The notes under the pieces: model-generated | The model's input: the letters and a program-made list of their open reading frames with translations, nothing else | What the model was told of the DNA's origin: nothing | Databases searched by the model: none | Position numbers and translations under genes: made by a program | Part shown: piece after piece, positions 5,613-64,000 of the stretch | How the letters are laid out: each line of letters begins with the position of its first letter | Position numbering within the stretch: position 1 is the first letter of the stretch | NCBI GenBank assembly: GCA_040954595.2 | Contig: CM082581.2 | Span: 9,031,878-9,095,877 of the forward strand | Direction of reading: 5' to 3' | Length of the DNA: 64,000 bases | Origin: Balanoglossus misakiensis | Taxonomy: Eukaryota > Animalia > Hemichordata

Positions 5613-5980
5613 TTATGAATAAGTGAAACGATTCATTGTTTTTAAAGAGTCTAAAACATGGAACTGTGGCACCCTACCTCACTTGCTTTTGTGTTTATTA
5701 TGGACTATTTTCAAAGTTGCCATATTGTACAAAAGTGCTCATCTTTTCTGTTGGTCACGGCCAAGATTGACTTATGAATAAGTAAACGATTCATTGTTTT
5801 AAAAGAGACCAAAAAACCTAGAACTTCGGCATTCAACGCCCATTGCCTTTATGTTTCTGATGAATTGTTTTAAAATTTGACATCGTGTACAAAAGAATGT
5901 ACATCGTCTTTGTTTGTCAAAATCTGGTGTTGATTTAGCATCGGTGCATTCATACAGTTTGACAGTCACGGCCAAGATTG
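5613..5980. repeat. Diverged tandem duplication of about 160 bp (5613-5771 and 5772-5980)
   Basis: Both copies start TTATGAATAAGT(G)AAACGATTCATTGTTTT, share TGTACAAAAG and end GTCACGGCCAAGATTG. Copy 2 carries about 50 extra nt. Confidence 0.85.
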
Positions 5981-24813: not shown

Positions 24814-26323
24814 CTGTTCAAAAATATTTGTTTTCTCTTAATTAAAACGTGTCTATCGAGTGTTGTGCACGTGGAAATTTGACCACAGTTTACAGCAGAC
24901 TCTTACAGTATACAGGCTAATATGTAAGTTTACCCTTGGCACTGTAAACGGATCAGGAGTCTTTATCTCAATTCGCACGACCTTGCCAAACTCCAGCCTG
25001 TTTTCCACTCTTATCTAGTTCTGCGTGATGAATACCATGATTTCAATAACACAGTGTGATTGACTACAAACTATTTGATAAATTTATGGCTGTGCAGGGT
25101 GCGGGTCCGCTTACACATTTGTCAGCACTTGATTAAGGGATTTGCCGGGCACTCAACTCAAGCCGACGAGCTGTCCCAATCGTTTAACTCGTGAAAAGTT
25201 GACAAAATAAGGCCCCTTGTAAGTTGTTTCTCCTTTTAACTGACTGAATGGCTCTGATTGTTTTGGGAGTGGCTCTCGGTCGTCATTGTGACCCGCCGGA
25301 GCAACTTCAATTCAGGTTTTACAATTCCGTTCTGAGGGAAACCAAGAAAAACATATAGACTCCGCTTAGCTTACCTCCACTTAGTTCGCCTATTCTGGAA
25401 CCAGGTCTTCACTTGTGCGTCTGTCATTTTCAGTGCTTTCGCTAAGGCGGCCCTCTCTGCCGAGGCGAGGTACTTTTGTCGGTGGAATCGCTTCTCGAGT
25501 TCGCATATCTGCAGACGGGAGAAGGACGTTCGTGGCTTTTTGCGCTTCGGGGGTGTGCGATTCTGGTACGGGTGGCCGATTCTCCGTGTAACTGTATTAA
25601 AAGGAAAGAAACGGGACGCGAACAATTAAAATATATAATGGATTGGGGAGAAAAAGACATAAAAAGTACTCGAGGGAGTGCATATGCGTCTTAAGATCGT
25701 GGATCAACCAACTGGTGGACTTGTATCATTCTTTTCATAACGTGTTAAAGACTTAAGTGCGGGATATATATCACTCGATTGTGGTTTCGCGGCATGGTCT
25801 CCCCCACCCCTGCTGCGAAACGCCGCGCACAGAATTGAAGGCCAATTATTGAAAGTGTTTCCTCCACTTTGGTTTTGATTACAGACCGATGGTCTGATTG
25901 TGTGTTTGTTGTATACCTACCGGTGAGTCTGTCTTTGGCGAGCCGTCGCGACTCCATCCAGGGGAAGGTGGACGAGAGAGGTGCCGGCGGGGGCCGGTGG
26001 GCAGGCACTCGGATAACCCCTGTCGTCGTACTGTAGGAGGGAAGCAGCGGCTGCGGGTAGAGGAGCGCTCCGGAGGAAACAATTGCGCTGAACGTGGGCG
26101 AGAGAGGTAGAGACGATCCCGATGTTGTTGTCGGTGTGCTTAAAATCTGATTGATACTGAAGGAAATGTTCGCAGTGTTCGAGTTGCCCGTGTGTGAGTT
26201 GGGAGGTCGATCCCTCTTGCTTTCCTGGTCCGAGTCCTCCTTCTTCATGGTGCTCTCGCCCTCCTCTCTGCGCTCAAGCGATGATCGGGCACCGGTGCCG
26301 CTCTCGATCTCCATGTGTGGCAT
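24576..26323 (-). CDS. Tlx: T-cell leukemia homeobox (Tlx/Hox11-family) transcription factor, 3 coding exons: 26323-25921, 25591-25375, 24813-24576 (858 nt, 285 aa)
   Basis: Eh1/TN motif (SFSINQIL), [10 protein letters not shown] box, FPWME hexapeptide, homeodomain [58 protein letters not shown] with the Tlx-diagnostic Thr47, followed by [12 protein letters not shown] and the C-terminal [11 protein letters not shown] motif. GT-AG introns are phase-compatible (1 and 2). Confidence 0.97.
25375..25591 (-). CDS. Tlx: Tlx exon 2 (homeodomain)
   Basis: Acceptor TTTAATACAG|, encodes [24 protein letters not shown]...[10 protein letters not shown], donor AG|GTAAGC (phase 2). Confidence 0.97.
25921..26323 (-). 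CDS. Tlx: Tlx exon 1 (eh1, GVIRVP box, hexapeptide)
   Basis: [11 protein letters not shown]...[15 protein letters not shown] ends at donor G|GTAGGT (phase 1). The start could be the ATG at 26323 or the next in-frame ATG. Confidence 0.92.
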
Positions 26324-26467
26324 CTTTGGCCGTGCCTGTTCAATTTAAAAACCGGGGGACCTTTCACCGTGACTAGCTGTGACTTGTGTTATGTTAAACT
26401 TTTTTTTTCTCTCTTGTCAGATGTCCTGTCTTGTGTCAATCCCAACACTGCTCGGTTGTACCCGGCG

Positions 26468-52593: not shown

Positions 52594-52663
52594 ATGGGAG
52601 TCACCAGACCTCAATACATGATAACAATTCTCGCGATCGTTACGTTTACAGTTCAAGTTTGGG
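52594..52663 (+). CDS. PKD1-like exon: signal peptide
   Basis: MGVTRPQYMITILAIVTFTVQVW has a hydrophobic core and ends at donor G|GTGAGT (phase 1), which fits the next exon. Confidence 0.75.
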
Positions 52664-55600
52664 GTGAGTATACGTAAACTGTAATTTTACAATCTCTGAA
52701 TTATAACAGATCTATTTTTACGTGTTGGATTGTAGGGACTATCATAGTCGTCTACAGAATTCTGCGTAATCTGTGTGCAATGACGAGGCAGTTTAATTTC
52801 GAGGCGCTGGGAAAACTAGAATAAGACAGAGTTACAGACAAGCAAAAAAAAACCCTCACATTGCGGGAAACAAAAAGCCAGCGTGCAGGTAGTAAGTGAT
52901 AACTTACGAGCTACACGGTGAAAATTTTGACAAAAAAGTTTTCGCGTTAGAATTTATCCCGGATTTATTGGTATTATTTCCCATCACCAACTCGCTGGCA
53001 ATACCCTGATGCAAAGTCCCTGTGCCCGATGCTACCTTCATATAGTGAAAGTAATTATCACTATAGTTAACACCTTTTTTAGTTTGAAGTTTGTCTGAAA
53101 GGAGGGACCATTCACGCCCGAATGTGTCGACAATGGTTGTGGGCGGGGCAATCTGCATATCACCGCCACCAGTAGCCAGAAAGTACCCGTACAGGTGACC
53201 GTCCCCTATGCTAGCCTACGGTGTACCGTACGCGCATTCACGCTATACCACATATATCCAACGTTAATTTTAAACCGTGTTTCAATGCTTGAAATCACGA
53301 GTAATAGCGGAACAAATCTTCACTTCATTCACTCATTCCCGGGCGTGGGAAGTGATCATCCGAAACGGCACCTGAAATCCATCCATCCAAGTTATATATA
53401 CCACTGTACAATTAGATTAAAGTGTACCTTGCCTTTCTTTTCTTTTTGTCAGCTGCAAACTATCGTTATGAAATCAGTTCAGAGAAAAAGACGTGGAACG
53501 ACGCGGCCGCTGACTGCTCCTCACGCGGTGGAATGCTGGCCAAGATTCTGGACTCGACTACACAGTCAACACTGGAGTCGATTATCGCCAAGGCTGGTCA
53601 CTCAGGTACAAATACGAACGCATTTACATTTGCATATTAGCCACTTGTCTTTTGCAACTGCCATGTTTTACTTCACTAAGAGGCGTTGGTGTCGGTGAGA
53701 AAGCTGAGATTTGACTTAACCGCCTCTTTGATGTTGCAGGTGAACGCGTTTGGTTTGGGCTTGCTGATGAAAGCACTCTGTATTATCCTGACAGTTGCCC
53801 AATATCACGGTATACAAACTGGGACGCAGGAGAACCAAACGGCTACTACGAAAATTGTGTTCATATAAGACGGTAAGGTTTAACCGTAGACTAGCCCACT
53901 AGTCGCTTGGTGATTTTTGTTTTGTTTTTATAAAGATTCTCAATACTTTTCGTGTATTTGCCAGCATTGAGCGAGTTTCTTGTACTGGGCTGAGTTTCGA
54001 ATTCGGGGCTGGGCTTCTGATTTCGGTTGCCATCCAACAAGCGACTTTAATATATGGGCCAACGCGACCCTCCGCACACGCTACGTAGAGTGACTCTGAA
54101 CGATTAAAAATCAGACATTCGTCCTACCGACAAGAGAAACTCGATTTGAGTGTTCCAATATTTTGCAGGGATGGTCACACCTGGAACGATAACGACTGTT
54201 CAGATGAATTCTGGTACATTTGTCAATTTGATGAAATTCCTGTCGGTAAGTTGCAATGATCAGAGACCTGAATTTTGTGTTCCAATATTTTGCAGGAATG
54301 ATTACACATGGAATGATTTACCATGTTCGTATGCAAACTGGTACATTTGCCAATTTGATGAAATTCCTGTTGGTAAGTTGCAATGATCATATTTATGTTT
54401 TGACGTATTGTATTAACACACTATAAATGCCTAAACATAACTGTCCTGCATGAAGTTAATGTGTGCGATACAGATACTGGTTGGAGGTCGAACATTAACA
54501 AATCGATGTTCATGAAGTAAATGTTTACATTAAATTTATTTATCATTTATCGCATATCCAGTCCCAGAGCAGCCTGCTTCACTGTGGCCCCTGAATGACG
54601 AATACGGTCTGGCAGAAGCTACGGGTAACGGCAACGACGTCATCGATCAAGGTGACGTCACCATCGGAACTGTGGGAGGAGTTGACGCTTACTTCTTTTC
54701 TGGACAAACTAACTCCTCTGTCACTTTTTCGATCGAAGATAAGTTTCTGTTAAGCTTTTCTATGACTATCCTCGTGGAAGTGTACCCCCAGTCCCGGCCC
54801 GGACCCATTCTCACCGCCGGCCGCCATGGTTGCAGCATCACCAGAGATGATCTTGACACCGTGTCTGCCAGTGTGGTCGACACTGATGGTACAGTGTACA
54901 CCATGACTATGGAATCACTCACTGACAACGAGTGGAATTCAATAGGGATGTCCTATGACAACTTCACCGGCGAACTCAAATTGTGGCACAACGGCGGAGT
55001 GGTCGACTGTCTCAACATCGGTCAAGTTCGACTGAACACTACCGATAGTCTGCACCTGGGGTATGACGCTACCGTCGCGGATACCGCTTTCGGGGGCTAC
55101 GTCACATGCCTTCAGATATACGACCAGGATTTGTCTGGGACTGAGATACAATCTGCACATAATAAATGCCCTGTTCATTCAGGTTAGTGGTGGCATTTTT
55201 TCATTAAAATACGGGGAAGATTGTCTCAAATGACCTTACAAACAGCAGGTATGTATGTGGGTATATATGGTTAAGTGTTGCCTCTCCTAATTCAAGCGGT
55301 TTGTCTTCTGTTGTTTCAGATCCCGTGGACCACTGGGACTTGAGCGGGAGCTGTGACGCAAGCACGCCCTATGAAGAATGCGCTTTGTTAGAATCCTGCG
55401 ACGATGGTGTCATTTCAAATCTTGACAGAAACGTGGGCATCCTCAACGCCCGGGCTGCACTCACCGACTCCCCTATCGCCCCCTACCCAAGTTGCGCCCT
55501 CCACCTGGAGAAGAACTACGTCATCTTCGGCAATTACTCGGGTACCTGCGTCTCGGACGTGTCTCTCTGCACTCTTGGGATTTCTGCGTCGTTGTGGATG

Positions 55601-58600
55601 CGAATAAGTGTCACGGAGAGTGACTGCTCGGGGATCGTTTTCTCGTCGGGAGGACACGACGGTAACTCTCGCGGCATCATTGTCCGACTCGACAACACCG
55701 GGACTACTTGCAAGCTGATCTTTGACGTCCGCAACGGAACTCAGAGATGGAAAGCTCAAAAGGCCCTTCCCTACGACGATTATTGGTTCCATGCAGCTTT
55801 CACCTTCAGAGAAGAAAACGGAGCAAAGATATACATAAACGGCGACTTGTGGACCCAAGATAGCAGACCAACCGCAGCTTTAGCTGCTGTTAACAACGAC
55901 AAGACCCTTCTAGTTTTGGGAGCGCGAAACGATAATTTAGACAACGAAACATCCATTTCTGGTTCCTTCAGCGACTTTATGATATACATGTCTGAGCTTA
56001 GTGCAGACGTGGTGTCATCAAAATACAACGTCTATGTAAATCGTGAGTACACTCTCTTGTACTCTGGTACTATCAAAGAGAAATAACATGCCTTTCGCTT
56101 GTTAAATTGTGGCCAAACGATAGGAGGACATTACTGGTTATTTGTCCTTTGCAAGAGTATTCTGCTTGGTTTAAGAGACTTAGAACATCTAATGTGACTA
56201 TAATTGTCTTCGCTATTACAGGGAATTATTTTGGACCGAAACGTTGGCTTGACGGAGGCAGGTGTGGAAGCTCTTTCCCATTGCCAAATGGCGGAGCTTC
56301 CATATGTAACCCCGATAGCACACAAAGATGCTGCTCTTCGTACATGTGGTGTGGTTCCTCTTCGGCGCATTGCAACTGTAACGCCTGTACCGATTACCAA
56401 TCCGTATTCGGTAAGTAAGATCGCGCGTTCCGTAATCTCCAAGATTTGAGTAATGCGCATACACATGTAAATGTGCACTATTTTTTTTTCATTATTGTAC
56501 GTCATGAGGGTGAGGTACTGAGGCTCATTTGCAAGACAAAACTGGTTTTGGCTTTGGAAACAATATGGCCGCCACGTCAGGTTTAATGGTATTGTCACGT
56601 GACTATGCTAGTTTTCCAGGGCTACAGCCATTATACTATAGGGTATGTTTTTTCTTTAGGGAGCTGTGATCCTGGGTGGCTTTCCAATGATGTTTCGTGT
56701 TATTACTTCAGCACTGACTCCAAAACTTGGGCAGATGCAAAAGACCAATGTGAATCGATCGGGGCGTATCTCGTCATCATCGAGACCGCTAGTGAACAGG
56801 ACTTCCTGAAAGGCCAGGCACTTTTAAGAATAGCATCGTGTTCTCCTTCCTCAGACTGTATGACGTGGATTGGACTGCGTAAATATAAGGTAATCATGTG
56901 ATTTTTAACCCCCCCCCCGTCAATGAGGGCCAGACTAGGCGCACGTTACACAAGTTCAAATGACATTCAAATAATTATATTCTAGAATAGGCGAAACCAT
57001 GAATGACGCGGATGTTTATGTGATGTCAGGCAGCGGCGCAACGTCACTTTTTTGTCTTCTTCCACAACAGTCTACGTCCTCGAACTTCAGATGGATAGGC
57101 GGGACTGACCCAGTGTATACAAGTTGGGCAGACGGACGACCTGCCGATGTCAATCAAGCCGACGGTAACGATTGTGTCTCCATGGAGACGACAGGTGGCA
57201 AATGGTATAATCAGAACTGTGACTTACTGGCGAGATACGCATGTGAAAGAAACGGTGAGATGTCTCTCGGCGGATTAATGAAACCATTTAGGGGGTGATG
57301 GATAGGGGTGCTCTCTGTGGTTAACGATAGCAATCGATATTCTGAAGCTTATGCCAGCCGAAATGAATTTATGCCCGACTTGCTCATTTGCCGGGCGTAC
57401 AGATAAAGACAACACCAGTGACCTGTTGCATTGTATTCTGTTCTCGTGTGAAAACTAATTAACCCACTGCATAGATGATGGTACAATATATAATGGGGCG
57501 GAATAAATGAATATATTTCACTGCTTATAATTAAACCAACATCAAACCTATGATGATCAACCTACAGGTACTCTTCCAACATCAACGCCAACCGTTTCTT
57601 TGTATACCGGTATTGAGGATGACTTAGCAGACCTAGTGTCATTTTTAGAAAATTCGACGTCTACAGATTCCCAGGATTTAGAGGTAGTAAAGTTTAAGAC
57701 ATTTCTCGAAAATCTTTTCGACTGTGATTTAGTTGATCATAATATGATCAAAAATAATGCCCTGTCTATTTTTGGAAACCAATGCATACTCGGCCGTACC
57801 CATGCTTATGGTCCTGAATCCATTATCAAGTGACGTACATCACACTAATCATCTATAATATACATATGTCCCTATATGGGCGAATGGTTTATTACGCTAA
57901 TCAACCCCTCTCAATAACATTTCACTCGTTTTACTCTAGTTGGTGGAATTTGTTGAACGACTGTACAACATTACAGGAATGATCACAGATCTGGGTATTG
58001 GGCTGAATGAAACAGTTGCCATCATTAAAGGTTTGTGTAGAAATATAAGTATATAATATACATGACACAGACATCTACTTGTCAATGATTAGATACGAAA
58101 CCGTCCTACGGCCTGCGGCCATTTGAAAGTGGCCACGTGAAAGTCATTAAGTGGCCCGCTCGTCATTTCCCCGCAGATATCACGTCTATGACAGACCAGG
58201 TCATGTCTAAGGTTATCGGACATTCGGGCAACACGTCAATACTGGCTAACATGACACACTCCAAAGAAGACGACAGGCAGCTGACATATGGTCTAATGGA
58301 AACAATCGACACCATCGCCGACGTTCTACACGACGTGATGGAACCAGCAGGCGACGAGTCAGTGATGATCAACCTACCATCCATGTCGCTGTATGTCGCG
58401 GTGACATCTGCGGCCAATTTCGGAGACTCCTCCGTCTCGTTTCCGGGTTCCTCTGAGGTGGTTCTACCTCCAGCGGAGGACTTGTTCCCGAACATGGATA
58501 TGAACGAGACCATTTATTTTGTGGTAAGTGCGTTTCTTAACCAAATCTCCAAGTATTTCTTGGCCAAAAACAACGTGCAATATTCACAAGTGGCAGCTAT

Positions 58601-61600
58601 AGGACCCGTTTTTCATTTTCATGATAATTTTAAAAACACATTTTCAATTTTGCAGTCGTTAAGGACACAGGGGAGCATGTTTACATGGGCAGATAATTCG
58701 CATCTCATGAACTCTGAGGTAATAACTATGTACTTCAAAGATACGTCCGGAAAGAAACTCAAAAGTAAGTCGTTCTACCCCGCTTTTCTCAAGAGTCGTC
58801 AAGCGTGATCATTTCTGCGCACCTTTAGCAAACAGTGACCAGTGCACACCGTCGCACTCTGACGGAAGCCAGTACAGACAAAGGGCATAGATCCCTTACT
58901 GTGCAAAAAGTTGGTATTTCGTTATTCACAAAGCTATCTGTTTCAACCCATTTCTCCTATGCAGTCAGCGGTCTCTCACGATACATCACTCTGAAGTTGA
59001 AAAACTGTCAAGCTGACCCACCCAGTCAAGCTGTGATTTCGCCGACCTTCTACGAAGAAACTGAACAAGGAAACTATACATGGAGCGTTCAGGTAATTAT
59101 AGCAAAGCTGGCTCCATTTAGGTGGGGTTAAATATTTTGCATTTGCATGCCAGTCAACCCCTCCCTGTTCTTTGCCAATCCTAAGCCATTGCGTAACGGT
59201 AAAAGATATTCTCCTTTTGTTCACAGGCACCTGAATCTTTTATGGCATTTCAAATAAACGTTGATGTCAGCCATATTGTTTTGAATGAGTCGGTGCACGT
59301 GTATATGGCCTACAACAGAACGCCGGGGCCTGGCGACTATGACTTCAAGACAAGCCTATCGGAAACACAAGGGATGTTGAAGATATTCATTCCAGACGCG
59401 GAAATAACAGATGCCGGCGATTACATGTTCTCGTTTTACTTACCATCAGGTATGGTTGTGTTTGTGGGAAAGTGTTGCGAATTTTATTTGACCATAGACT
59501 CTAGTTTTGAGCAAATCTTCAGTTGTCAAGCGCGAAATGTTCAAAAAATGTCATGTGGCAATTGTATTTTCGCTTTTTATACAACCAAGATACTATCGTA
59601 TTGATATTCGGACTGTCACCCTCCTAGGAGCGGAATCAGTAGAGACTAAAAGGATGATAGCCTTCTTGTGCTTAACATGTTCGATGATTTAACTTCTCCT
59701 TTTAAAATCAAGGTGCAAATTTGAGCACGACGGTAACACAGTATGGGTGTAAATATTGGGATCATGGCAGCGCAAGGTGGGAAAGACATGGATGTATGGT
59801 AAGTGAACCTTTGAACGTTAAAAGACGTGTGCTTTCTATTGTAACCAGAGGAGTTGTCAGGGAGTTGAAACACAAACGAGTGGCAGCGTTTTGTAAACCT
59901 ACTGTATCCATGGCAATATACTTTCTACAGGTGTCGCCCGAATCGAGCGTGGAGACCACGGTGTGCCTGTGCAATCACATGACGTCATTCGGTGCTGCCT
60001 TCTACGTGGTGCCACCCAATCCGATTGACTTCCAAGTGGCCTTTAGCAATTTTGCCAACTTGGACGACAACCTCTCGGTATTCCTGACGATAATCGGGAT
60101 TTTTGTTTTCTACTTGGTTTTCGTTATTTGGGCAAGATGGCTAGACAGGAAAGAGCATATCGAGGTAAGAGCTGTCTTTTTCTGGTGGAATCGGCATGGG
60201 CCAATAGTGTCATGGTTATGTGTTCTTCATCTGTCGTACCTCGACCATATTCTGGGTGCATTAAAGTACTTGACACCAGCGGTCAGCCTTTGATCGAGGA
60301 TTATTCTAGCGGTCCAGACAACCACATCGCACACCTACACGTCCATAGTATTCCACAGTCACGTGAAAATGCCGTTGTCCTCTTTCAGTTTGACAGTCTT
60401 CCATTATCAAGCAATAGTCCGTCTGATAAGTACATGTATGAAGTCACCATTAGTACCGGGATAGACAGAGGAGCGGGTACAACTTCCAACGTCTACTTGA
60501 AGCTGTACGGGGCGGACAGTAGAACCAAGGCAAGGCCTATTCACAGCGTCGACGCCGAGGTACATGTATGTGTACGGGATGTCATTTCTTTCTTTGAGTT
60601 CGGTCGGAGATGTGAAATGCAGCATTGGTTAACTAAAAACTAGATAGCGTTTCAATCACTTGCTTTCTGAGAACATATTGAAAATCATTACCAGTGTTAT
60701 ACCAGTTGCCTGTATCTCTGCTCTTTTCGACGCTCGACAGTTATTCCAACGCGGGAGTCGGCACTCGTTCCTGCTCGGTTCACCGTCGTTTCTTGGCGAC
60801 ATAAAATACCTCCGGGTCTGGCACGATAACTCCGGCCAAGGACGGAATGCGTCGTGGTTCCTGTCGGAGATCATAGTCAAAGATTTGACGACTCAGAAAA
60901 AGTAAGTACCGATTTAAAATTGTGATAGTGAGAGGAAATAACGTGAGATGGTAGGAGATGCTTTATGACCTTTGGTGTTCCACCTCAAACTGTGTTTCCG
61001 GAAAATACACCCATTCTAACGGCAACTTAAACGTTTCCCTCCAAAGGTACGATTTCCCATGTTTCAAGTGGCTTGCCGTGGAGCGAGATGATGGTCAGAT
61101 ACAGCGTGTGTTGACGCCGTGGGACGGGAAGGGCGCGAAACCGGGAGAGTCACTTTCCCGAAAAGCACGAGACGACATGATGGACGACCACTTGTGGGTT
61201 TCGGTCTTCGCAAAGCCTTATGGGACACACTTCACGCGGGTTCAGCGCGTTTCCTGTTGTTTGATGGCGCTGTTGACGTCGATGTTGGCCAGTTGTATGT
61301 GGTACAAGTCCGAGTTCAACGATACGAGAATACAGACCATACGACTGGGTAAGCATAGCAACACTATTCAAGCTTATATATGTTTTACTTGTTTCAGCTA
61401 TGCGCTGCGCTGCAGGAATTGCAGGCGATCAAGACAGTTGAATATTTTATCTACATTAATTATGTCTTATATCATCTGATGACGTCATTCACAGGTCCTT
61501 TCACATTCACATGGCATGAGATATTCGTCGGCACCATGAGTGGACTGCTTGTTGTGCCCATCAGCGTCATCGTCGTGGGAATATTCCGGAAAGCTAAGCC

Positions 61601-64000
61601 AAGGTCGCGGCCGTCCTGCAGTACGGCATGTGACGTCATATCATGGCCGAGGAGGGTCTTCCCGTCGTCTGCACAACAACAACAGCATCAAAAGCAACAG
61701 CAGCAAGAACAGTCACATCTCCCGCCCGAAAGCATATTCATCACTTCTACCGTGTCGGAAGACTATCGAGTGTTGAAAACCAAATCGATGGCGTATTACC
61801 ATTCGTCACAGAGTGAAACACACGTTATAGAATTTCAGGGGATTCCAGAAAGTCATGCCGTGACTACGCAGGCGCAAGCCCAGGCGAGCGTCGCCAGCAC
61901 GACCAGAGAGAAAGTGAAACGTATACTAAACAGTGACTTCCAACTTCCTTATCACTTCGTCTACGTCGGTTGGTTTTTGGTGTTTTCTTCGACGTTCCTT
62001 TCGGCTTTCTTCACCATTTTGTACAGTATGCAATGGGGGCATGAGAAGTCGGTTGCTTTCTTGAAGTCGGTGACAGTGTCTTTTCTGGAGAATGTGTTTG
62101 TCTTTCAACCGCTGAAGGTAAGAAGGCATTTTATCCATTTTTTATATTAAGGGTCAACAGTGCTGAATTAAAAGATTGAAATTAACTATGCGAAATCCGT
62201 CAAATAGACAGAATTGAAGGTTCTCATTTCCCCCACTGCCATGCGCAAATCTCGCGACTGATGCCACTTTTCGTCTTTCCTTCTTACAAGGTCATCGTCC
62301 TGGCGATATTGCTCTCGCTTGCCGCTCTTACAAAAGAGCAGAATTCCACCGAAAACAGAGACACCGACGACGTAAAAGCTCTCCCCGCGACGGGACCACC
62401 GCTGGAAATAAACGACGAAACGTGGAGCAACCAACGGGAACAGCACAACAAGAAGAAAATCCTGGGTGGCATCGTGAAAGAAATACTTCTGTATTTTGTG
62501 TTCATGGCATGCCTGCTTATCATTGCTTACAACGACAGGGATATCAACGCCTACAACATGAGGACCTCACTGCACAACCTATATTTTAACAATGCCCATT
62601 TCCAAACGGTGAGTGTTGATCAGTTCTGAATACATGTACTCTGTAGAATTCTTTTCCAGGAAAGGGTCCATATTCTCTATCAAAGCCCAATACAGTGACA
62701 TACGTGTCTATAACTGTGGCACACAATAACACATTCGGAAACCTTTTGTTTGAAACAGATTACCTCAGGAAGCGCAGCATTGTGGGAGTGGATTTTTGGT
62801 ATAATGCTACCGTCTTTGTATCCGACACATTTGTACAATGGACAACCGATACCGAGCGAGCTGTCGACCATCACAGCTGATTGGACATCGTACAGGGTAT
62901 CATCCCCACGACTACTACAGTACAGAGTGCGACCGGGTAAGTCCTGTAGGTTGAGTTCACCAGCGAGACAGAGAGAGAGAGAGACCAGCAGACAGACAAA
63001 CAAACATACAGACACATAGACAGACAGAGACCGAGGGAAGAGCGACAGGCATGTCCGAACTCCAATTGTCGGGCAAAAATTGCGTACGTTGTCAAGTGTA
63101 CAATGTCTTTCCTCCCACAGGTCTTTGCACACCACCGCCTGCTTTCAGCGCTATCCTGGACCAGTGTAATGTTGAATACTCGCCAAGCTCTGCTGACCGG
63201 GCCGATTATGACGTTGGATGGTCGGAGTTGGTTCTAGCTAATACAACTGGTCACGAGACTCCGCCATCACCATGGATACTATCAAGCGATATCCCAGCTA
63301 TAGGATACAGAACGTCGTTTTCAAGTTATCGCGATGGTTCCTATGCCGTGCATCTGGGTCAGTGTCAAGTTCACCCTCGTTCAAAAGCATGTACATTCAC
63401 ATACCTCAATATTTCAACGATAGATAGATGGATATTTGCTAGGTTGCTTAGTTTGACACCAATGTTCCCACAACTCCAACAGGTGAAAATTATGGGATAG
63501 CTGAGAACACCACGAGATCTCTATGGCAACACCTATGGCTTGATCGACTCTCCAGAGCGGTTATCATCGATTGGCTCGTATATAGTGCAAATCTCAATCT
63601 ATTCGGGTAGGTACACGTGCTTTTGGTTTGTACTGTTACAGTAGTATGTGTAATTTTTACATACATCATTCAGCATTTTGCCTGAACATTCACGCATTAC
63701 ATGCAAAGAGTTCACTTCAGTACTTTTCCCCCAGGCTTATCATTCTACCCGTGGAGTTACCGACATCGGGCGGAGTGTGGGTTCATCCAAGGATCGAAAT
63801 ATTCCGCCTTGACGATTACATAGGAAGCTACTGGATATTCCTGGCGACAGTGCAACTTGTGTTCGTCTGTTTCCTGGTTTATTACATTATTGTAGAGGGG
63901 AGAAAGATATACCGCGAACGACGGGAACATTTCAGTTCATTTTGGAATTGGCTGGAGGCAAGTAATTATGGTTCTACATGTCATGTCAACATTGTATGTT
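52594..64000 (+). CDS. Polycystin-1-like (PKD1L2/PKD1L3-type) GPS-containing 11-TM receptor/channel subunit, 3'-truncated by the window
   Basis: Hand-built exon chain 52594-52663, 53453-53605, 53740-53872, (54169-54245 or 54296-54372), 54562-55182, 55320-56042, 56222-56410, 56660-56889, 57071-57254, 57568-57683, 57940-58030, 58177-58523, 58656-58764, 58965-59092, 59227-59449, 59713-59798, 59931-60164, 60389-60559, 60741-60901, 61047-61348, 61495-62117, 62291-62608, 62759-62936, 63121-63357, 63483-63606, 63735-63957 is phase-consistent throughout (6051 nt). Family motifs: GPS CKYW...W...GC...CLCNHMTSFG, PLAT (YEVTISTG...GAGTTSNV...LRVWHDNSG...SWFL...FPCFKWL), DHLWVSVF...FTRVQRVSCC, WLDRLSRAV...YSANLNLF. 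Confidence 0.95.
53453..53605 (+). CDS. PKD1-like exon: C-type lectin 1, N-part
   Basis: YRYEISSEKKTWNDAAADCSSRGGMLAKI; TTTTGTCAG| acceptor, G|GTAC donor. Confidence 0.88.
53740..53872 (+). CDS. PKD1-like exon: C-type lectin 1, middle (EPN motif)
   Basis: ERVWFGLADE...YTNWDAGEPNGYYENCVHIR; phase 1 to phase 2, donor CG|GTAAGG. Confidence 0.9.
54169..54245 (+). CDS. PKD1-like mutually exclusive exon A (CTL1 WND segment)
   Basis: DGHTWNDNDCSDEFWYICQFDEIPV; TTTTGCAG| acceptor and G|GTAAGT donor; 77 nt. Confidence 0.82.
54296..54372 (+). CDS. PKD1-like mutually exclusive exon B (CTL1 WND segment)
   Basis: NDYTWNDLPCSYANWYICQFDEIPV; same acceptor and donor sequences; 77 nt. Confidence 0.82.
54562..55182 (+). 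CDS. PKD1-like exon: LamG/concanavalin-A-like domain 1
   Basis: PASLWPLNDEYG...SFSMTILVEVYP...NEWNSIGMSYDNFTGELKLWHNG...LHLG...FGGYVTCLQIYDQDLS, a LamG_3-like pattern. Confidence 0.85.
55320..56042 (+). CDS. PKD1-like exon: LamG/concanavalin-A-like domain 2
   Basis: PVDHWDL...CVSDVSLCTLGISASLWM...SSGG...WFHAAFTF...KIYING...LVLG...GSFSDFMIY. Confidence 0.85.
56222..56410 (+). CDS. PKD1-like exon: hevein-type (chitin-binding type 1) domain
   Basis: WLDGGRCG...CNP...CCSSYMWCGSSSAHCNCNACTDY; 8 Cys with the CCS-x-aromatic-x-WCG signature; phase 1-1. Confidence 0.85.
56660..57254 (+). CDS. PKD1-like exons: C-type lectin 2 (56660-56889, 57071-57254)
   Basis: CDPGW...SCYYF...KTWADAKDQC...WIGL / FRW...YTSWADGRP...DCV...WYNQNC...YACE. 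Confidence 0.9.
57568..59449 (+). CDS. PKD1-like exons: stalk and GAIN domain (57568-57683, 57940-58030, 58177-58523, 58656-58764, 58965-59092, 59227-59449)
   Basis: Phase-consistent GT-AG exons; a helical region, then the polycystin GAIN-like pattern SEVITMYF...LKISGLSRYITLKL...VYMAYNRTP...YDF. Confidence 0.78.
59713..60164 (+). CDS. PKD1-like exons: GPS motif and TM1 (59713-59798, 59931-60164)
   Basis: CKYWDHGSARWERHGC/VSPES...CLCNHM^TSFG...VPPNPIDF...VFLTIIGIFVFYLVFVIWARWLD. Confidence 0.93.
60389..61348 (+). CDS. PKD1-like exons: PLAT/LH2 domain and TM2 (60389-60559, 60741-60901, 61047-61348)
   Basis: YEVTISTG...GAGTTSNVYLKLYG; FQRG...LRVWHDNSG...SWFL; FPCFKWLAVE...DHLWVSVF...FTRVQRVSCC. 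Confidence 0.93.
61495..62608 (+). CDS. PKD1-like exons: TM3 to TM6 region (61495-62117, 62291-62608)
   Basis: GPFTFTWHEIFVG...IFRK; LPYHFVYVGW...YSMQWG...FQPLK/VIVLA; EILLYFVFMACLLIIAY. Confidence 0.9.
62759..63957 (+). CDS. PKD1-like exons: TOP (polycystin) domain and start of channel domain (62759-62936, 63121-63357, 63483-63606, 63735-63957)
   Basis: LWEWI...PRLLQYRV...C; YRDGSYAVHLG; WLDRLSRAVIIDWLVYSANLNLF; VELPTSGG...FSSFWNWLE. Confidence 0.9.
62964..63030. repeat. Intronic (GA)/(CAGA) microsatellite
   Basis: gagacagagagagagagagaccagcagacagacaaacaaacatacagacacatagacagacagaga. Confidence 0.8.

What the first reader, a model, noticed from the sequence alone, without database searches (positions are those of the whole stretch)
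54150..54389. Mutually exclusive duplicated exons that swap the sugar-binding WND segment of a polycystin C-type lectin
Seen: a tandem duplication with a 127-bp period gives two 77-nt exons (54169-54245, 54296-54372). They share the same acceptor context (GTGTTCCAATATTTTGCAG) and the same donor context (G|GTAAGTTGCAATGATCA). Each exon starts in phase 2 and ends in phase 1, so including both shifts the frame, and retaining the spacer hits TGA. The spacer is only 50 nt, the shortest intron in this gene model. Both copies are intact and keep WND, both Cys and WYICQFDEIPV, but differ around WND (DGHTWNDNDCSDEF vs NDYTWNDLPCSYAN). Established: EPN and WND form Ca2+/sugar site 2 of C-type lectin domains, and neighbouring residues tune specificity. 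Inference: a splicing switch gives one polycystin receptor two ligand specificities.
Basis: partly seen in the sequence, partly recalled or inferred. Interest (0 to 1): 0.85.

Follow-up and report, generated by a model that had tools for sequence, protein, structure and literature searches.

The report
Swappable sugar-binding exon in acorn-worm polycystin
A polycystin receptor-channel gene, likely from an acorn worm, carries two intact copies of the exon that builds one wall of its sugar-binding pocket, arranged so that only one copy at a time gives a full protein; splicing likely uses either copy, which would give two receptors predicted to differ in the fine choice of sugar.

Summary
Two 77-nt exons (54169-54245, 54296-54372; phase 2 to 1) lie 50 nt apart in a 26-exon PKD1L2-like model that reads 2017 aa without a stop with either exon; both, neither or the retained spacer give early stops. 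The other 25 introns are 125-789 nt. Neutral sites of the two copies differ by about 35-43%, yet their splice flanks are identical (0 of 36) and WND, both Cys and the last 11 codons are unchanged, which a dead copy would rarely show (about 0.002 in simulation). EPN and all five predicted Ca2+ ligands are shared, so the mannose-type class would not change; the swap hits the positions of SP-D Arg343 and langerin P310/K313/F315. In Ptychodera flava, whose gene copies are 84-93% identical, the same face is the most variable part of the protein. No transcript evidence was obtained, and overall dN/dS (0.37) alone does not exclude a decaying copy. Verdict: likely mutually exclusive exons, a known mechanism in a new receptor.

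The parts
52594..52663 (+). Predicted first coding exon; hydrophobic N-terminus that looks like a signal peptide
   Evidence: Aligns to the N-termini of P. flava homologues; GT donor, phase 1; signal peptide judged by eye
53453..53605 (+). Constitutive exon, first third of C-type lectin domain 1
   Evidence: Pfam Lectin_C E 3e-4, just under the curated cut-off; tblastn to P0002
53740..53872 (+). Constitutive exon with EPN, the following Glu and the first inner Cys; ends in phase 2
54150..54168 (+). Acceptor flank of exon A, identical to that of exon B
   Evidence: 0 of 19 differences
54169..54245 (+). Exon A (77 nt): WND followed by N-D-C-S-D-E-F
   Evidence: matches the WND-to-last-Cys segment of solved C-type lectins weakly (best E 0.1)
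54246..54295 (+). 50-nt spacer: 17-nt donor flank of A, 14 diverged nt, 19-nt acceptor flank of B; in-frame TGA if retained
54296..54372 (+). Exon B (77 nt): WND followed by L-P-C-S-Y-A-N
   Evidence: matches mannose receptor CRD4 at E 0.0026
54373..54389 (+). Donor flank of exon B, identical to that of exon A; end of the duplication
   Evidence: 0 of 17 differences
54562..56042 (+). Two exons (54562-55182, 55320-56042), each a laminin-G/ConA-like domain; the first needs a phase-1 partner
   Evidence: Pfam Laminin_G_3 E 5e-10 and 9e-18
56222..57254 (+). Cys-rich hevein-like module and a second C-type lectin domain that lacks EPN and WND
   Evidence: Pfam Chitin_bind_1 E 0.013 (below cut-off), Lectin_C E 1e-6 and 6e-8; translation
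57568..63957 (+). Rest of the gene inside the window: GAIN/GPS region, PLAT domain, transmembrane part, start of the polycystin channel domain; the gene runs past 64000
   Evidence: Pfam GPS E 2e-4 (just under cut-off), PLAT E 4e-5 and 2e-6, PKD_channel E 4e-5; open frame

Best explanation
An old tandem duplication gave this polycystin-1-like gene two copies of the exon for the WND side of its first lectin domain, and splicing likely includes one or the other, giving two full-length receptors predicted to bind the same mannose-type sugar class with different side contacts. Shown: only one-exon messages keep the frame; the spacer is 50 nt; the sequence differences. Inferred: (1) double inclusion is blocked because any branch point in the spacer lies under 50 nt from A's donor, and leaks are removed by nonsense-mediated decay; (2) both exons are in use; (3) the changed residues retune binding to larger glycans; (4) binding at this domain feeds into the receptor-channel. 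Since the splice sites are identical, the choice would rest on the branch-point region and the diverged 5' half of the exons, or be close to a fixed mixture.
For: Frame logic and intact 2017-aa frame with either exon. Spacer 50 nt against 125-789 nt for 25 of 25 other introns. Both exons have splice sites in the normal range of this gene: donors 9.9 and 8.9 bits (others 2.9-11.1), acceptors 6.7 and 7.1 (others 1.5-11.9). The duplication is old: 5 of 15 synonymous third positions and 6 of 14 spacer-middle bases differ. Yet preset splice windows differ at 1 of 24 sites (Fisher p 0.024 against the synonymous sites, 0.007 with the distal bases added). If one copy had been free since the duplication at the rate that gives the observed 7-8 residue changes, intact GT/AG, no stop, WND, both Cys and identical flanks arise in about 0.002 of runs, the identical last 11 residues in 0.02. 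Against four P. flava copies, derived residues fall on both exons (A: His, Asp after WND+1; B: Asp, Ala, Asn) (read by eye). The residue after WND is Arg343 in SP-D, a key selectivity residue (PMC2791854 passages); langerin P310, K313 and F315 tune binding (PMC7276794 passages); A and B differ at all four matching positions. Among four P. flava copies the matching 14 residues are in the top 1.3% of windows for divergence (0.405 against a mean of 0.117) and the adjacent window is the highest of the protein.
Against: No junction read, transcript or annotated isoform was seen for either exon. Overall pN is 0.18 and dN/dS 0.37, about what one freed copy would give (7.3-7.4 residue changes at t 0.15), and there is no sign of positive selection. 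Six adjacent base changes look like one slippage event (Asn-Asp repeated in A), so there are fewer independent changes than 18. The flank lengths were partly chosen from the data, so 0.002 is optimistic; at t 0.1 it is 0.014. The overlap of A/B differences with P. flava variable sites (6 of 8, against 6 of 17) is not significant (p 0.097). None of the 6 P. flava records seen shows a swapped isoform of one gene. The most variable P. flava window (EPN loop to beta3) is constitutive here. Sugar binding by this domain is untested.
Confidence: 0.6

Rival explanations
1. One exon carries nearly all messages; the other is a minor or recently abandoned copy that has not yet decayed visibly.
For: Overall amino-acid divergence fits one freed copy; no RNA evidence; many predicted exon pairs fail validation (1399 of 6541 human candidates passed with one read, 10.1101/133215 passages).
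Against: Identical flanks, no stop, no indel and an untouched core despite about 40% neutral divergence; derived changes on both copies; a dead copy with a perfect donor and acceptor would compete for splicing.
Confidence: 0.22
2. A recent duplication whose 5' exon half was then overwritten by sequence from a paralogue or a divergent allele; the identical flanks would reflect youth, not selection. Either-or splicing may still occur but need not be adaptive.
For: Differences cluster (16 of the first 46 nt, 2 of the last 31); P. flava has five copies of the gene that vary in this segment, and exon B shares L-P-C-S-Y with one of them.
Against: The 3' half also differs at 2 of about 5.3 synonymous sites, and the spacer middle is homologous (8 of 14, chance 0.015) but diverged; no second copy of the gene lies in the window.
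Confidence: 0.1
3. The pair serves mainly to make non-productive or truncated messages: reading into either donor flank ends the protein four residues after the complete lectin domain, which would give a secreted lectin.
For: The identical 17-nt donor flank covers the in-frame stop in both copies, more than the splice consensus needs.
Against: No canonical poly(A) signal in the intron, one ATTAAA at 54529 only; a retained message would be a decay target (established knowledge); the acceptor flank is equally conserved.
Confidence: 0.05
4. Assembly artefact: two haplotypes or paralogues merged in tandem.
For: Raw reads could not be examined.
Against: The unit (127 nt) is shorter than a usual read; 23% exon divergence beside identical flanks is unlike allelic variation; the window has no N and the gene is otherwise clean.
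Confidence: 0.03

Closest known systems
Tandem-duplicated mutually exclusive exons (human survey 10.1101/133215; C. elegans survey PMC4165533; passages read)
   Same: Equal-length homologous neighbours, length not divisible by three, donor-to-branch distance under 50 nt. The human survey lists frameshift in 377 (60%) and short distance in 57 of 629 clusters.
   Different: Here both safeguards act together and the splice flanks are identical; not validated by RNA.
FGFR IIIb/IIIc exons (function recalled; a title on their mutual exclusion and decay seen in a reference list)
   Same: Alternative exons exchange part of a receptor's ligand-binding domain.
   Different: Lectin domain of an 11-TM-type polycystin, 25 residues only, apparently lineage-specific, no known regulation.
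Ptychodera flava 'polycystin-1-like protein 2' gene copies (XP_070540434, 070540745-748, 070540433)
   Same: Same domain order, 55% identity over 2017 aa, EPN and WND kept in lectin domain 1, the same segment variable.
   Different: Variation there lies between separate genes; no swapped isoform among the records seen. Their introns could not be read.
Sea urchin REJ1-3 polycystin-family proteins (PMC1934368 passages)
   Same: Polycystin-1 family with C-type lectin domains; the paper cites positive selection on these domains.
   Different: No LamG pair reported in the passages read; no splicing mentioned there (0 hits for 'splic'); nothing links the present gene to sperm.
Collectins and langerin (SP-D PMC2791854; PMC7276794; passages)
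   Same: EPN...E...WND Ca2+ site; tuning by the residue after WND and those around the next Cys.
   Different: Their variation is by paralogue, species or allele in the passages read, not by exon choice.

Membership tests
Mutually exclusive exons | Adjacent, homologous, equal length, compatible splice phases | tested here: met
   77 and 77 nt, phase 2 to 1, 17 of 25 residues identical
Mutually exclusive exons | Each exon alone gives a full reading frame; both or neither do not | tested here: met
   minor loophole through downstream AGs
Mutually exclusive exons | Junction reads for each exon that bridge the other | not testable with these tools
   No RNA run was listed
Mutually exclusive exons | Exclusion by steric limit (donor to branch point under about 50 nt) | tested here: inconclusive
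   Geometry meets the criterion (50-nt spacer); the branch point is not mapped and the species' minimum intron size is known only from this gene (125 nt)
Mutually exclusive exons | Docking-site/selector RNA pairing (Dscam type) | tested here: not met
   No unusual fold: z -0.55 for the repeat, +0.47 for the spacer; pairing with distant intron parts was not tested
Polycystin-1 family (PKD1L2-like) | GPS, PLAT and polycystin channel domains in order | tested here: met
   Pfam hits on single exons (GPS just under cut-off); GPS reads HMT where P. flava P0002 has HLT
Polycystin-1 family (PKD1L2-like) | Orthology to vertebrate PKD1L2 specifically | not tested
   Name taken from NCBI labels of the P. 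flava homologues; no tree built
Polycystin-1 family (PKD1L2-like) | Complete 11-TM region and C-terminal tail | not testable with these tools
   The gene runs off the window; no genome held
Ca2+-dependent mannose-type C-type lectin | EPN, Glu two before the inner Cys, WND, four conserved Cys | tested here: met
   Present with either exon; ligand set as in SP-D Table 1
Ca2+-dependent mannose-type C-type lectin | Ca2+-dependent sugar binding | not testable with these tools
   Needs a binding assay

The most novel reading that the evidence does not exclude
Selection keeps the two exons' splice sites identical so that the animal makes two sugar-tuned versions of one lectin-gated polycystin channel, reaching by exon choice the same pocket diversity that Ptychodera flava reaches with five whole-gene copies. 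The pair would be a natural, otherwise identical experiment on what a polycystin lectin domain binds and how that opens the channel.
Probability: 0.3. Interest if true: 0.72.

Novelty: new variant of a known kind. Interest (0 to 1): 0.5.

Why it matters
Natural ligands of polycystin lectin domains are poorly known (PMC1934368 says so for PKD1L2 and PKD1L3 as of 2007; PMC9672506 names only Wnts and shear stress as activators of PC1). Two receptors that differ in eight residues beside an intact Ca2+/sugar site, with the same face hypervariable among gene copies of a related species, point to a variable glycan ligand and make it testable with two small recombinant domains. The splicing mechanism itself is well known.

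Tried and rejected
RNA runs: no RNA holder listed, so no reads were laid; this is no evidence either way. No genome held, so paralogues outside the window and species-wide intron sizes are unknown. The window's own protein was not found in the protein collection: searches gave no hits, one search gave P. flava and prokaryotic-type hits only; weak evidence by the tool's own account. Metagenome scans: 0 matches to the acceptor pattern; 66 pattern hits, none confirmed. RNA folding gave no significant structure. A single-sequence fold of the P. flava lectin domain was poor (pLDDT 54.7) and was not used. A branch-point motif scan found candidates in only 14 of 25 introns, so the candidate 25 nt before exon B carries little weight. 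Positive selection between A and B: not supported (dN/dS 0.37). No other exon of the gene has a copy in its introns. Two draft exon borders were wrong and were corrected: a false 62-nt intron at 58031-58092 (true acceptor 58177) and the exon start at 62759. Literature searches for lectin or polycystin mutually exclusive exons: 0 papers; 2, unrelated by title; 12; 5, on Dscam, FREPs and invertebrate immunity by title; 0; 43, 15 listed; none listed describes this case by title or abstract start. The library lacks most subscription papers; no supplements were read.

Full report
Observation. The repeat is real: period 127 nt, 1.9 copies, 54150-54389. It holds two 77-nt exons, A (54169-54245) and B (54296-54372), 59 of 77 bases identical and without indels. 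The 19 bases before and the 17 bases after each exon are identical.

The gene. I built a 26-exon model by hand from 52594 to 63957. It reads 2017 aa without a stop with exon A and also with exon B; all 25 introns are GT-AG and 125-789 nt long. Pfam on single exons gives, in order, C-type lectin, two laminin-G-like domains, a weak chitin-binding hit, a second lectin, GPS, PLAT and the polycystin channel (the first lectin piece and GPS score just under the cut-offs). The closest proteins are five Ptychodera flava gene models named 'polycystin-1-like protein 2', 53-57% identical, each on a contig of the same 39.1-Mb length. The window is therefore likely from an acorn worm; its own protein was not found in the collection. 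Only lectin domain 1 has EPN and WND; domain 2 lacks both here and in the four P. flava copies printed. P. flava isoform X2 joins isoform X1 at residue 121/122, one codon from the split codon here, which fits an intron at about this place.

Either-or geometry. The upstream exon ends in phase 2 and the downstream exon needs phase 1. Skipping both exons stops the protein after 130 aa, including both after 180 aa, retaining the spacer after 148 aa. The spacer is 50 nt, so any branch point for B lies less than 50 nt from A's donor, the criterion used for steric exclusion in the human survey (10.1101/133215 passages); too-short spacers are also reported in C. elegans, where the limit is about 40 nt (PMC4165533 passages). 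A 50-nt intron is thus not unspliceable in all animals; here it is far below the gene's minimum of 125. One loophole exists: AG sites giving exon starts 54570 and 54573 would restore the frame of an A+B message. No RNA structure stands out. Donor and acceptor scores of both exons lie in the gene's normal range.

Are both copies alive? The duplication is old: 5 of 15 synonymous third positions differ, and the 14-nt middle of the spacer matches the DNA upstream of A at 8 of 14 bases (chance 0.015). Against this background, preset splice windows differ at 1 of 24 sites (p 0.024; 0.007 with the distal bases added) and the last 11 codons carry no amino-acid change over about 28 non-synonymous sites (a run of 11 or more by chance 0.025). 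A simulation in which one copy is freed at duplication gives intact splice dinucleotides, no stop, WND, both Cys and identical flanks in 0.0019-0.0021 of runs at the branch length that yields 7-8 residue changes, and in 0.014 at a shorter one; the flank length was partly chosen from the data. Against the reading: overall dN/dS is 0.37 (Sd 5.75 of 14.5, Nd 12.25 of 66.5), which alone fits one freed copy, and six adjacent changes look like one slippage event. A copy abandoned recently would also pass these tests. No transcript was seen (one search listed no run).

What the swap would change. SP-D binds Ca2+ with Glu321, Asn323, Glu329, Asn341 and Asp342, and Arg343, the next residue, is a key selectivity residue, equivalent to Ile207 of MBP-A (PMC2791854 passages). 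All five matching ligands are common to both forms here, three from the constitutive exon and two from WND. EPN marks the mannose/fucose/glucose class (PMC7276794 passages). The sugar class is therefore predicted to stay. A and B differ at WND+1 (Asn/Leu), WND+2 (Asp/Pro) and at two, three and four residues after the next Cys (Asp/Tyr, Glu/Ala, Phe/Asn). In langerin numbering these include P310, K313 and F315, which the review names as tuning contacts, K313I abolishing sulfated-glycan binding. That Asn307 is the Asn of langerin's WND is recalled; langerin matched both exons over equal lengths but weakly, and its alignment was not displayed. A is more acidic around the pocket and B more hydrophobic, so different preferences for larger or charged glycans are predicted, not shown.

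Independent hint from a relative. Four of the five P. flava copies cover lectin domain 1 (P0156 starts later; isoform P0162 was left out). They are 84-93% identical, mean divergence 0.117 over 2188 columns. The 14 residues that match the variable half of the exon diverge by 0.405, in the top 1.3% of windows, and the adjacent window (residues 109-122) is the highest in the protein at 0.512. So the sugar-binding face is what varies among gene copies there. Site by site the overlap is not significant (6 of 8 differing sites are variable, against 6 of 17 identical sites; p 0.097), and the top window is constitutive in this gene. Sea urchin REJ lectin domains are cited as positively selected (PMC1934368 passages; the primary paper was seen only as a citation).

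Mechanism, committed. Likely mutually exclusive splicing of a duplicated exon, enforced by the short spacer and by decay of frameshifted messages, giving two full-length receptors with one Ca2+/mannose-type site and two sets of side contacts (0.6). How ligand binding would act on the channel is taken from the polycystin-1 model (PMC9672506 passages) and is untested. Rivals: one dominant exon with a minor or lately abandoned copy (0.22); young duplication overwritten from a paralogue (0.10); truncated secreted lectin (0.05); assembly artefact (0.03).

Novelty. The mechanism is a known kind. Six searches listed no paper on such exons in a polycystin or C-type lectin sugar site, judged by titles and abstract starts, in a library that lacks most subscription journals. 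Unchecked notes report duplicated exon pairs in other genes of this genome, a lectin-half swap in insect latrophilin and a dead duplicate exon in a shark lectin; I treat these as leads only. Rating: new variant of a known kind, interest 0.5.

Noticed in passing
window 25370-26344, minus strand: A Tlx/Hox11-type homeobox gene: an exon with an eh1-like SFSINQIL motif and FPWM hexapeptide, then a homeodomain exon. The family label is recalled from the motifs; Pfam gave no hit on the first exon.
   Followed up: partly
window 5613-5919: A second local tandem duplication, AT-rich and apparently non-coding, 75% identical over 149 columns with 3 gaps and scattered changes; it shows what an unconstrained duplicate looks like here.
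   Followed up: partly
window 54246-54262 and 54373-54389: The identical donor flanks extend to +17, beyond the splice consensus, and include an in-frame stop four codons after the lectin domain; the reason for this extra conservation is unexplained.
   Followed up: partly
window 63957-63963: The last exon in the window may end at a GC donor or four bases later at a GT donor; the next exon lies outside the window.
   Followed up: no
window 56222-56410: A Cys-rich hevein-like module (Pfam Chitin_bind_1, E 0.013, below cut-off) sits between the laminin-G domains and the second lectin, 63% identical in P. flava: a possible second sugar-binding unit in a polycystin.
   Followed up: no
P. flava proteins P0002, P0154, P0163, P0155, P0156: Five near-identical polycystin-1-like genes, likely a cluster on one chromosome, whose most variable window is the EPN-to-WND face of lectin domain 1.
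   Followed up: partly
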